IMG/VR virus record: IMGVR_UViG_3300002835_000070
Span: 1 to 64,000 of that record
Length of the DNA stretch: 64,000 nt
Direction: 5' to 3' (one strand)
Source: a virus
Each line of letters starts with the position of its first letter. Position 1 is the first letter of the stretch. Below, piece after piece: positions 13,719 to 15,112 of the stretch. The notes under the pieces are model-generated. The model ran no database searches. It saw only the letters and a program-made list of their open reading frames with translations, and had not been told where the DNA came from. Position numbers and translations under genes: made by a program.

Positions 13719-13979
13719 ATGGAAACAACTTTCAAAAAAGTAGAGGCTAAATTCAAGTTCTCTAAAGATTGGACAGACATAACCGAGAAAACACAATTGG
13801 TTACTGTTGACCTAATTATTAATTATCACAACAAAACTTTTAGCGTTACTCCTAACAACCAAGTTTCGGGAAAATTCACGTTCTGTCAAGGAGGTGCTAA
13901 TTCTGCTATTATGTGGAACACAGTATTGGAAACAATCAAAGAAGCAACATATTTCGCTCATAAAGAGTTGGAATTTTAA
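13719..13979 (+). CDS. Hypothetical protein
   Basis: ORF downstream of a promoter. Confidence 0.6.
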   Translation: METTFKKVEAKFKFSKDWTDITEKTQLVTVDLIINYHNKTFSVTPNNQVSGKFTFCQGGANSAIMWNTVLETIKEATYFAHKELEF

Positions 13980-14223
13980 CAACAACATTTATTAATCACT
14001 AAAACAAAAGATTATGAGTGAAACTATTCACACAGTACCCGAATTAAAGGTGCTTCAAATTGCAATAGTTTGTCATCAGGCAAACAAAGCGTGGTGCGAT
14101 GCACACGGAGATACAACTCAAAAAAATTGGGACGAAGCAGAGGGTTGGCAACGTCAAAGCGCAATTACAGGAGTTCTTTTTAGAATTGGTAATCCTGAAG
14201 CGGGACACGATGCGCAACACAAC

Positions 14224-14450
14224 GGTAAACCGCTATGAGTAGTGGCGGATTTGGAACTACTCACTTTAAATTTAGCAATAATGTCAAAAGAAAAAACAAA
14301 ACTTCAAGAACCAACTATCCCGCCATTACTTATAGCGGATGTTAACATATCGGTTTGCGAACACAATAATTTAATAATAAAAAAGAAAACGGTAAAATGT
14401 CCGCATTGTGGCAAAATATGGAAAGTTGTCTAAGCAAACTGGATGCTAAC
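14224..14450 (+). mobile_element. Small attC-like/cassette-like insertion carrying a 50-aa ORF
   Basis: AAC at both junctions; two inverted-repeat pairs (14230-14249/14319-14338 and 14341-14358/14434-14450). Confidence 0.75.
14281..14433 (+). CDS. Insertion-borne mini-protein with CxH...CPHC
   Basis: MSKEKTKLQEPTIPPLLIADVNISVCEH...CPHCGKIWKVV; stop abuts the terminal inverted repeat. Confidence 0.55.
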   Translation: MSKEKTKLQEPTIPPLLIADVNISVCEHNNLIIKKKTVKCPHCGKIWKVV

Positions 14451-14647
14451 GCTTGGTTGGAAGACAAGAAAAAAGACGGTTGGGTTTATGGAGAGGTTAA
14501 AGATGCCGAAGCCAAAACACACCCTTGTATAGTGCATTTCGAGGAACTGCCTGAATTTCAAAAGAAAAAAGACGCTCTTTTCTGCGCAATTGTTGATTCA
14601 TTATCAGCTAATAAAATGCTAACAATAACAAAATTAAAATAAATAAA

Positions 14648-15112
14648 ATGGAAAATAGAACTGCACAACCTATGATAATAACGGTTGAAAATAAAACTGA
14701 AAAAGAAATGCAAGATGTTATTTTGTTTGGCGCATCAAATATATTTAATAATTTATTATCCAAAAAAGATAATTTAATTGAGGGTTTAGAAATAAAATCA
14801 TTTATACCCAATGTTGAATATAGTGACATAATTTTAAAAACAATAACCAATACTCTTCATATTCAAAATATAGGTTTTAAAATTAATAATAGACCCGATG
14901 AATTTGATTTATTTATAAAAACGAAAGATATTAATGGCAATGTTGCTCAAATGAACGCACAATTAAATTCAGATTTAAAAAAAGAAGACGGACAAGCAAA
15001 AGGATATGATTTTTATACGGAAAGAAAATTTAGAATAGATGCTTTTACTGAATTAATAATACCTAAAATACTTGCAAAAACTAAAATAACTATTTACATT
15101 TATTACATATAA
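14648..15112 (+). CDS. Paralogue of the candidate major capsid domain
   Basis: QPMIITVEN...LFG...IPNVEY...TKDINGNVAQ...FRIDAFTELII aligns with 59233-59928. Confidence 0.8.
   Translation: MENRTAQPMIITVENKTEKEMQDVILFGASNIFNNLLSKKDNLIEGLEIKSFIPNVEYSDIILKTITNTLHIQNIGFKINNRPDEFDLFIKTKDINGNVAQMNAQLNSDLKKEDGQAKGYDFYTERKFRIDAFTELIIPKILAKTKITIYIYYI

What the first reader, a model, noticed from the sequence alone, without database searches (positions are those of the whole stretch)
14014..14642. 227-bp transposase-free, attC-like cassette precisely interrupting a RyR-domain gene
Seen: removing 14224-14450 (AAC at both junctions) restores ...HDAQHN-AWLEDKKKDGW... in frame. The insert has two inverted-repeat pairs: CCGCTATGAGTAGTGGCGGA / CCCGCCATTACTTATAGCGG, and GTTAACATATCGGTTTGC / GCAAACTGGATGCTAAC. 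A circle closed at AAC would therefore fold into a rod with AAC opposite the central GTT (14341). It encodes a 50-aa Cys-containing peptide that reads through the repeat. Known: integron attC sites are folded ssDNA substrates with AAC/GTT cores. Inference: a minimal mobile cassette mobilised in trans, or an RNA-level excised element. Since 227 is not a multiple of 3, the host gene needs excision to be restored.
Basis: partly seen in the sequence, partly recalled or inferred. Interest (0 to 1): 0.75.

Follow-up and report, generated by a model that had tools for sequence, protein, structure and literature searches.

The report
Integron-like cassette splitting a phage gene
A 227-base mobile gene cassette, one of a large and barely described integron-like family used by Bacteroidota and their phages to swap accessory genes, has landed inside an ordinary phage gene and split it; related phages still carry the intact gene, which fixes the cassette's ends to within four bases.

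Summary
Removing 14224-14450 rejoins the two halves of a RyR-domain gene with no residue lost or gained. Twenty-nine uninterrupted homologues exist, and two syntenic relatives (L104, L105) have the empty site. Independent lake metagenome assemblies from 2016 to 2024 bridge both junctions, so it is not a chimera.

The insert is not an orphan. Its first ~120 nt recur at 81-91% identity in about 70 viral contigs. There they head single-gene cassettes arranged in tandem arrays of up to 11 units, many carrying DNA methyltransferases. Each unit has the same plan:
- ...TAAC|G, a 5-nt spacer, then a ~110-nt hairpin whose loop holds the start codon
- GTTA plus 11 cassette-specific nt, the cargo, then the complementary 11 nt plus TAAC

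The layout matches an integron attC site (R box, spacer, L box), with strong covariation and near-invariant G.T pairs on the sense strand.

A Xer-like tyrosine recombinase without the IntI-specific domain adjoins such arrays in some phages and in Flavobacteriaceae chromosomes. This phage has none.

Best reading: a solitary cassette inserted in trans at an R-box-like secondary site (ACACAAC|G), disrupting the gene. No evidence supports RNA-level excision.

This scan had already noted the family in at least 19 other genomes. The published precedent is Qi et al. 2023.

The parts
14014..14223 (+). N-terminal 70 codons of the RyR-domain gene. As it stands the frame runs on to a TGA at 14236-14238.
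   Evidence: ORF list. It is 69-73% identical to uninterrupted 124-146-aa PF02026 proteins.
14221..14224 (+). Left junction AACG. The target ACACAAC|G resembles the R-box end of natural cassettes.
   Evidence: Natural cassette ends such as ...GCACACAAC and ...TGACACAAC appear.
14224..14229 (+). Unpaired spacer GGTAAA between the AAC core and the hairpin.
   Evidence: The same TAAC|GGTAAA-CCGC is found in L070 and L076. The spacer is G plus 3-5 nt in the whole family.
14230..14338 (+). Hairpin 1 (L-box-like). The arms are 14230-14248 and 14320-14338, and the 71-nt loop holds the start codon.
   Evidence: It is 81-91% identical to about 70 viral copies. Covariation is shown.
14281..14433 (+). 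Cargo ORF of 50 aa. The first 26 aa are the family leader encoded by the hairpin. The last 24 aa are unique and carry CxH...CxxC, which looks like a zinc ribbon.
   Evidence: The Zn-ribbon Pfam hits are weak and below cut-off (E 0.03-0.1). Other small cassettes carry CxxC...CxxC cargo.
14341..14358 (+). Left cassette-end repeat (GTTA core plus extension), GTTAACATATCGGTTTGC.
   Evidence: The family rule is GTTA plus 11 cassette-specific nt.
14388..14396 (+). Internal exact copy of the left-junction 9-mer AACGGTAAA, directly before ATG 14397. Unexplained.
   Evidence: Repeat D3; sequence.
14434..14450 (+). Right cassette-end repeat ending in TAAC, GCAAACTGGATGCTAAC. It pairs with 14341-14358.
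   Evidence: The pairing is less perfect than the family norm of 14.6 of 15.
14448..14451 (+). Right junction AACG.
14451..14642 (+). C-terminal 63 codons plus stop of the RyR-domain gene. An in-frame ATG at 14397 inside the cassette could give an 81-aa product.
   Evidence: Pfam PF02026 at E 2.3e-9; alignment; ORF list.

Best explanation
The 227-nt insert is a complete, very small gene cassette. It belongs to an integron-like gene-shuffling system shared by Bacteroidota (Flavobacteriaceae) chromosomes and their phages.

A cassette runs from the G after ...TAAC to the next ...TAAC. It comprises a short spacer, a ~110-nt hairpin whose loop carries the start codon, a GTTA box plus about 11 cassette-specific nt, the cargo, and the complement of those nt ending in TAAC. 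When the cassette is a circle, the two ends pair and extend the hairpin into one rod with the layout of an attC site: R box, unpaired spacer, L box.

I infer the following steps:
- A tyrosine recombinase of the Xer/IntI clade, supplied in trans by the host or by a co-infecting phage, recombined the folded sense strand of such a circle with the gene.
- The target was a sequence in the RyR-domain gene that mimics an R box (ACACAAC|G), with the crossover inside AACG.
- The event split the gene and left only one complete site, so the cassette is probably trapped.

Shown: family membership, the cassette boundaries, DNA-level gain in this lineage, conserved single-strand structure, and the link between arrays and the recombinase.

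Inferred: which enzyme acted, the single-strand mechanism, and loss of RyR function.
For: Precise insertion:
- Uninterrupted homologues exist.
- Syntenic relatives L104 and L105 carry the empty sites CAACATAAC|TCT and CAACACAAT|TCT.

Stable and not an assembly artefact:
- Contigs of four independent lake runs bridge both junctions with no differences.

Family:
- About 70 viral copies share the hairpin, the preceding (T)AACG and the following GTGTTA.
- Among 173 unique cassettes there are 137 distinct end repeats. Cognate ends pair at 14.6 of 15 positions against 9.7 of 15 for non-cognate ends.
- Tandem arrays reach 11 units.
- Arrays also occur in cultured Flavobacterium phage snusmum6-1 and Polaribacter phage P12002L.

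Structure:
- 18 of 19 hairpin pairs covary, and one G.T pair is present in 89 of 98 sites.
- The sense strand is the more stable strand in 89 of 107 sites.

Recombinase:
- A 267-277-aa Xer-like enzyme lies 46-68 nt after the last cassette in phage loci L010/L125, L066, L082 and L122.
- Homologues at about 40% identity occur in 52 of 201 Flavobacteriaceae genomes searched. Of the 20 loci fetched, 11 show a cassette within 1.5 kb.
- Two chromosomes have arrays of about ten cassettes or more, whose hairpins begin ...GGCTATGAGTAGTTGC, close to the window's.

Experimental precedent:
- Qi et al. 2023 (PMC9892861) showed that IntI1 recombines P12002L_attC2. From their primer sequences and the P12002L sequence in L111, I infer that this site's R' box is the reverse complement of a cassette's ...GCCTAAC end.
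- By that inference the crossover falls at the same bond and on the same strand that I deduce for the window.
Against: - No recombinase of any tested family is encoded in this complete 102-kb genome.
- Only 7 of 50 element-bearing viral contigs, and 3 of 16 that are at least 90% complete, have a tyrosine recombinase.
- The recombinase lacks the IntI-specific insertion.
- The hairpins have no extrahelical bases.
- The orientation of the recombinase relative to the cassettes differs between phages (same strand) and chromosomes (convergent).
- P12002L_attC1, the site most like these junctions, gave no IntI1 recombinants (PMC9892861).
- Because the cargo genes lie on the folding strand, the conserved structure and the G.T pairs could serve the mRNA instead.
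- The window's end repeats are imperfect.
- No circle, excision product or activity has been observed.
Confidence: 0.6

Rival explanations
1. An IS200/IS605-type (PATE-like) single-strand transposon derivative. A Y1 HUH transposase supplied in trans cuts after TAAC at both ends, excises a single-strand circle, and pastes it 3' of another TAAC/CAAC.
For: - Insertion is 3' of a fixed tetranucleotide.
- The same tetranucleotide ends the element.
- There is no true target duplication, the structure is strand-specific, and removal is precise in silico.
Against: - No PF01797 is found in the own genome or in any of 50 element-bearing contigs.
- The right end has no local hairpin of its own and pairs only with the distal left repeat.
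- The hairpin of ~110 nt is far larger than TnpA sites (my own knowledge of the family).
- Arrays adjoin a tyrosine recombinase, not a Y1 enzyme.
Confidence: 0.1
2. The hairpins are expression or RNA-processing modules (start codon, leader, mRNA stems). Cassettes shuffle by homologous recombination between the repeated modules, as proposed for the PeSL elements of T4-type phages. On this view the copy in the RyR gene is a rare illegitimate event.
For: - The start codon lies in the hairpin loop in 65% of cassettes, and stop codons sit at two fixed places in the end repeat.
- G.T pairs occur only on the mRNA-sense strand.
- A conserved alternative local helix exists (14237-14243 with 14256-14262).
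- Most phages with arrays lack any recombinase.
- PeSL precedent: PMC2839356 and PMC4122927.
Against: - The RyR target shares only AACG with the element, yet both ends fall exactly at the family's unit boundaries.
- The end repeats are cassette-specific and covary, which homologous exchange does not need.
- The recombinase adjoins the arrays.
Confidence: 0.15
3. An RNA-level element: a new kind of self-splicing or protein-spliced intron, or a long translational bypass between the matched AAC codons. Either would keep the RyR protein whole.
For: - Both AAC triplets are in-frame codons.
- The insert is highly structured, and both gene halves are still open.
- The occupied allele has persisted from 2016 to 2024.
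Against: - No Rfam family matches, even at E up to 10.
- 69 of 70 copies flank complete genes and do not interrupt one.
- The matched AAC is explained by the element's own TAAC end and an R-box-like target.
- 227 nt is far beyond known bypass gaps of about 50 nt (my own knowledge).
- The first stop comes five codons after the AAC, not next to it.
Confidence: 0.05

Closest known systems
[quoted passage not shown]
   Same: - One-gene cassettes lie in tandem arrays.
- The site plan is ...YAAC, unpaired spacer, paired L box, variable loop, L box, GTTR..., about 130 nt long, like the sites of sedentary chromosomal integrons.
- Structure is conserved more than sequence, and folding is strand-biased.
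- The crossover falls within the AAC core.
- A tyrosine recombinase of the Xer/IntI clade sits beside the arrays.
- A cassette can land at a GTT/AAC-type secondary site and become trapped.
   Different: - The recombinase lacks the IntI-specific insertion: 25 residues where VchIntIA has 68.
- There are no extrahelical bases; near-invariant G.T pairs take their place.
- The pairing outside the core is 15 bp and cassette-specific.
- Genes lie on the folding strand, so the site sits in front of the gene and supplies its start codon.
- In a linear cassette the site is split between its two ends.
- IntegronFinder surveys report almost no integrons in Bacteroidetes (PMC9024848).
CALINs in virulent phages (Qi et al. 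2023, PMC9892861), especially Polaribacter phage P12002L
   Same: - It is the same system. P12002L_attC1 is one of the junction hairpins between methyltransferase cassettes in L111.
- The cargo is rich in DNA methyltransferases.
- No integrase is present in the phage.
   Different: - That paper found two sites in this phage and treated them as ordinary attC sites.
- It did not describe the covarying cassette ends, the start codon in the site, the Xer-like recombinase, the host chromosomal arrays, or an insertion inside a gene.
- The window's hairpin is longer (110 nt against about 45-60 nt).
PeSL mobile regulatory cassettes of T4-type phages (PMC2839356, PMC4122927)
   Same: - Repeated intergenic stem-loop modules flank small accessory genes in phage variable regions.
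- They are linked to the gain and loss of single genes.
   Different: - PeSLs are promoter-terminator motifs thought to act through homologous recombination.
- Here the unit ends are exact, the end repeats are cassette-specific, and a recombinase is associated.
IS200/IS605 family and its PATE derivatives
   Same: Strand-specific folded ends, insertion next to a fixed tetranucleotide, seamless excision in principle, and non-autonomous derivatives.
   Different: No Y1 transposase anywhere nearby, a different end architecture, and cargo-bearing arrays.

Membership tests
Classical integron (IntI + attI + attC cassettes) | An integron integrase carrying the IntI-specific additional domain | tested here: not met
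   - None is present in the window genome.
- The array-linked recombinases score below the cut-offs for TIGR02249 and NF011946, and their best match is XerA-type.
- Alignment to VchIntIA (2A3V) breaks where the additional domain lies: query 177-201 against chain 180-247.
Classical integron (IntI + attI + attC cassettes) | attC layout: R'' (RYYYAAC), unpaired spacer, L'', variable loop, L', R' (GTTRRRY) | tested here: met
   All sites share ...TAAC, G plus 3-5 nt, a 19-bp helix, a loop, the helix return, (G/A)TG, then TTA.... In the window these are CAAC / GGTAAA / 14230-14338 / AT / GTTAAC. The R boxes fit the consensus only loosely.
Classical integron (IntI + attI + attC cassettes) | Extrahelical bases in the L box that mark the recombinogenic strand | tested here: not met
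   The hairpin arms are of equal length and pair without bulges. Asymmetry comes from G.T pairs instead.
Classical integron (IntI + attI + attC cassettes) | Recombination by an integrase at the AA|C / G|TT bond | not testable with these tools
   The AACG identity at both junctions allows this bond. IntI1 recombined P12002L_attC2 in Qi et al. 2023 (PMC9892861).
Bacteroidota/phage integron-like cassette family (as defined here) | The unit starts ...AAC|G + spacer + conserved hairpin + GTTA repeat, and ends with the complementary repeat + TAAC | tested here: met
   Window 14224-14450. It is 91% identical over 114 nt to an L053 cassette and 88% over 129 nt to an L076 cassette. The end repeats pair, though imperfectly.
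Bacteroidota/phage integron-like cassette family (as defined here) | The cargo ORF starts at the ATG in the hairpin loop and stops just before or within the right repeat | tested here: met
   The ORF runs 14281-14433, and its stop directly precedes 14434-14450. Its leader MSKEKTKLQEP..PPLLIADV matches the L053 leader.
Group I / group II introns | A match to the intron RNA models | tested here: not met
   No Rfam hit at gathering threshold on the whole window, and none up to E 10 on 13900-14800.
IS200/IS605 (PATE) | A Y1 (HUH) transposase in the element, the genome or related elements | tested here: not met
   PF01797 is absent from the own genome and from 50 element-bearing contigs, while the control genomes gave hits. 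Host genomes were not tested.

The most novel reading that the evidence does not exclude
The rod-forming ends let the cassette be removed seamlessly, either from single-stranded replication intermediates or from the transcript. In that case the RyR-domain gene stays usable, and these cassettes can live inside ordinary genes much as introns do: an integron-type cassette that behaves as an excisable intervening sequence. The intact reading frames of both halves and eight years of persistence in lakes do not exclude this, but nothing positively supports it.
Probability: 0.06. Interest if true: 0.9.

Novelty: new variant of a known kind. Interest (0 to 1): 0.62.

Why it matters
Standard surveys regard integrons as nearly absent from Bacteroidota, and only a handful of attC sites have been reported in phages.

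- This element belongs to a large parallel system: arrays in many freshwater and marine phages, and in a quarter of the Flavobacteriaceae genomes sampled.
- The system has a Xer-like recombinase, reversed gene orientation, and recombination sites that double as translation starts.
- It carries anti-restriction methyltransferases and many unknown small proteins, so it is probably a main route by which these phages and hosts trade defence and counter-defence genes.
- The window adds something the arrays cannot give: an occupied site with matching empty sites. That pins the unit's ends and the crossover to four bases, and shows that cassettes can hit ordinary genes.
- The exact fit of each gene between start-codon hairpin and stop-codon repeat also bears on the open question of how integron cassettes are made.

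Tried and rejected
- **Rfam:** nothing on the whole window at gathering threshold or on the region at E up to 10, apart from a chance ctRNA fragment outside the insert.
- **Other copies in the own genome:** BLAST and a custom scan for AAC + stem + GTTA found only the one at 14224.
- **Phage database:** blastn of the insert gave one real hit, LR756502.1. The rest were short AT-rich chance matches.
- Alignment A1 was too diverse for that tool.
- **Other gene-interrupting copies:** none among the 70 loci.
- **Excision products:** the only contig that skips the insert (run X12, 94 nt) differs at 9 of 74 flanking letters and carries TT at the joint. It is an L105-like relative with an empty site, not an excision product. 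Logan contigs cannot show rare circles.
- **Integrase orientation as an argument:** dropped, because it differs between phage and chromosomal loci.
- **Zinc-ribbon assignment of the cargo:** only weak Pfam hits, all below cut-off.
- **Bacterial genomes:** the exact two-arm pattern was found only in nine metagenome-assembled genomes, mostly Bacteroidota and probably phage contigs.

Full report
**1. The observation**

The window is the first 64 kb of a complete 102,228-bp IMG/VR virus record. The ORF 14014-14238 encodes the N-terminal part of a RyR-domain protein and ends ...GHDAQHN-GKPL-stop. The frame beginning at 14451 encodes AWLEDKKKDGWVYGE..., which matches Pfam RyR PF02026 (E 2.3e-9).

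A search with the N-terminal 70 residues among longer proteins found 29 uninterrupted relatives of 124-224 aa, all carrying PF02026. Aligned with eight of them, the two window pieces abut exactly at ...GHDAQHN|(A/S)WLE....

Two viral contigs, L104 and L105, share the window's gene order from about 10 to 16.7 kb at 50-92% amino-acid identity. Both have the gene intact. A DNA alignment shows a single clean 227-nt gap. The empty sites read CAACATAAC|TCTTGG and CAACACAAT|TCTTGG, against CAACACAAC|[227 nt]|GCTTGG in the window. The identity shared by the two junctions is AACG, four bases.

Since every other homologue is uninterrupted, the insert was gained in this lineage.

**2. Not an artefact**

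Twenty-four freshwater and lake metagenome runs from 2016 to 2024 hold the stretch. I laid contigs from four of these runs on the region. In each run, single contigs or overlapping pairs bridge both junctions with no differences.

One 94-nt contig in run X12 skips the insert, but it differs at 9 of 74 flanking letters and carries TT at the joint. It is an L105-like relative with an empty site, not an excision product.

**3. Anatomy of the insert**

| Part | Coordinates | Note |
|---|---|---|
| Spacer GGTAAA | 14224-14229 | unpaired |
| Hairpin | arms 14230-14248 and 14320-14338 | 19 nt, two G.T pairs; the 71-nt loop holds ATG 14281 |
| AT | 14339-14340 | |
| GTTAACATATCGGTTTGC | 14341-14358 | left end repeat |
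| Unique sequence | 14359-14433 | rest of the cargo |
| GCAAACTGGATGCTAAC | 14434-14450 | right end repeat |

The 50-aa ORF 14281-14433 reads through the 3' arm and the GTTA repeat, and stops directly before the right repeat.

Folded as single-stranded DNA, a circle closed at AAC forms one rod: the two end repeats pair, with TAAC opposite GTTA, and stack under the hairpin.

**4. It belongs to a large family**

The hairpin recurs in a 642-kb uncultured phage with two compensatory changes. A 15-mer from its 5' arm found 95 viral contigs, and about 70 copies have both arms. Positions 1-121 of the insert are 81-91% identical to these copies. The cargo part is unique.

In all copies the hairpin is preceded by (T)AACG and followed by (G/A)TGTTA. 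After GTTA come 11 nt that differ from copy to copy. Their complement, ending in TAAC, lies 200-1100 nt downstream.

Figures for the family:
- 173 unique cassettes carry 137 distinct left repeats.
- Cognate ends pair at 14.6 of 15 positions, against 9.7 for non-cognate ends.
- Position 11 is G opposite T in about 150 of the 173.
- The units form tandem arrays, with eleven in L067, seven in L082 and about eleven in the cultured Flavobacterium phage vB_FspS_snusmum6-1.
- The ~115-nt junction hairpins between units come in many sequence variants with one shape.

On 98 junction sites, 92% of cells of the 19-bp helix are paired, and 18 of 19 pairs change on both sides. The covariation score is 0.545 against 0.135 in shuffles and at most 0.13 for slid partners. 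One pair is G.T in 89 of 98 sites. With DNA energy parameters the gene-sense strand folds better than its complement in 89 of 107 sites.

Cargo:
- Many N6/N4 and C5 DNA methyltransferases, an HNH/NUMOD-type endonuclease, small CxxC...CxxC proteins, and unknowns.
- In 65% of cassettes the ORF starts at an ATG inside the junction hairpin.
- In 68% it stops at one of two fixed places in the right repeat, one of which is the TAA of the terminal TAAC.

Among the 70 copies, only the window's copy lies inside a gene.

**5. What moves it**

The junction has the layout of an integron attC site: an R box ending in AAC, an unpaired spacer, a paired L box, a variable loop, and an R box beginning GTT. It spans about 130 nt.

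The window's insertion shows that the unit travels as hairpin + cargo. The crossover is within AACG on the 5' side of the hairpin on the gene-sense strand. In integron terms (the bottom-strand convention is my own knowledge of integrons) this is the bottom-strand AA|C bond.

A 267-277-aa tyrosine recombinase (PF13495 + PF00589) lies 46-68 nt after the last cassette in phage loci L010/L125, L066, L082 and L122. Its best NCBIfam and PDB matches are XerA-type, below every cut-off. Against VchIntIA it has 25 residues where the integron integrase has 68, so it lacks the IntI-specific domain.

Only 7 of 50 element-bearing contigs have any tyrosine recombinase. None has a Y1 transposase. The window genome has no tyrosine, serine or Y1 recombinase.

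Homologues of the phage recombinase at about 40% identity occur in 52 of 201 Flavobacteriaceae genomes searched. Of the 20 loci fetched, 11 show a cassette of the same design within 1.5 kb. Two chromosomes have arrays of about ten cassettes or more, whose hairpins begin ...GGCTATGAGTAGTTGC, close to the window's. The host group therefore offers a plausible enzyme in trans.

The recombinase is on the same strand as the cassettes in phages but convergent with them in chromosomes, so I draw no argument from its orientation.

**6. Literature**

- Qi et al. 2023 (PMC9892861) reported 17 CALINs in phages.
  - Their P12002L_attC1 is one of the junction hairpins in L111, and it gave no IntI1 recombinants.
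  - Their P12002L_attC2 was recombined by IntI1. Its R' box is the reverse complement of a cassette's ...GCCTAAC end, and only its bottom strand, which is the gene-sense strand, gave recombinants. The strand assignment is my reading of their primers against L111.
- IntegronFinder 2.0 found almost no integrons in Bacteroidetes (PMC9024848).
- PeSL elements of T4-type phages are a looser analogue.
- I found no paper describing the covarying ends, the start codon in the site, the Xer-like enzyme or the chromosomal arrays.
- Earlier notes of this scan describe the same family in at least 19 other genomes. I re-derived the points I use here myself.

**7. Verdict**

The insert is a solitary, probably trapped cassette of this integron-like system. 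It was inserted at an R-box-like secondary site and disrupts an accessory gene.

- Family membership and DNA-level gain: about 0.9.
- Tyrosine-recombinase, folded-strand mechanism: about 0.6.
- Rivals: homologous or regulatory shuffling 0.15, an IS200/IS605-like mechanism 0.1, an RNA-level element 0.05.

**8. Left unexplained**

- The internal AACGGTAAA at 14388-14396, which lies before an ATG that is in frame with the C-terminal half.
- The invariant G.T pairs.
- The alternative local helix 14237-14243 with 14256-14262.

Noticed in passing
window 14388-14399: An exact second copy of the left-junction 9-mer AACGGTAAA lies inside the cassette. It is followed at once by ATG 14397, which is in frame with the RyR C-terminal half (81-aa ORF 14397-14642). 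It could be the remnant of another site, an alternative crossover point, or a start that lets the C-terminal half be made.
   Followed up: no
window 14237-14243 and 14256-14262: GAGTAGT in the 5' arm of the hairpin can pair locally with the conserved loop segment ACTACTC instead of with the distal arm. A similar alternative helix (GGGCTTT / AAAGCCC) occurs in another hairpin variant, at L066 5044-5085.
   Followed up: partly
L066 6016-6082; L010 9712-9747; L082 (reverse strand) just after the last cassette; L112 (reverse strand) 6964 onward: Arrays end with TAAC followed by an AT-rich motif (TATTATAT..., TATAATAT..., TACAATAT...). In Flavobacteriaceae chromosomes the last cassette is followed by ...GGATAAAC.... 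This may be the attI-like partner site.
   Followed up: no
L146 (G204:C1:271205-289000) and L147 (G066:C20:69461-87000): Flavobacteriaceae chromosomes carry arrays of about ten cassettes or more, of the same design, next to a Xer-like recombinase that is convergent with the cassettes. Some cassettes are duplicated within one array: the 730-nt and 1469-nt units occur twice in L146.
   Followed up: partly
L091 3578-4234 (- strand): One cassette carries a NUMOD4/HNH-type homing endonuclease as its cargo, so one mobile element rides inside another.
   Followed up: no
lake metagenome run X12, contig record 16: The occupied allele and a roughly 12% diverged empty-site allele of the RyR gene occur together in the same 2024 lake sample.
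   Followed up: partly
L110 3001-3290: Another RyR-domain homologue matches in pieces that lie in different frames, which suggests a frameshifted copy.
   Followed up: no
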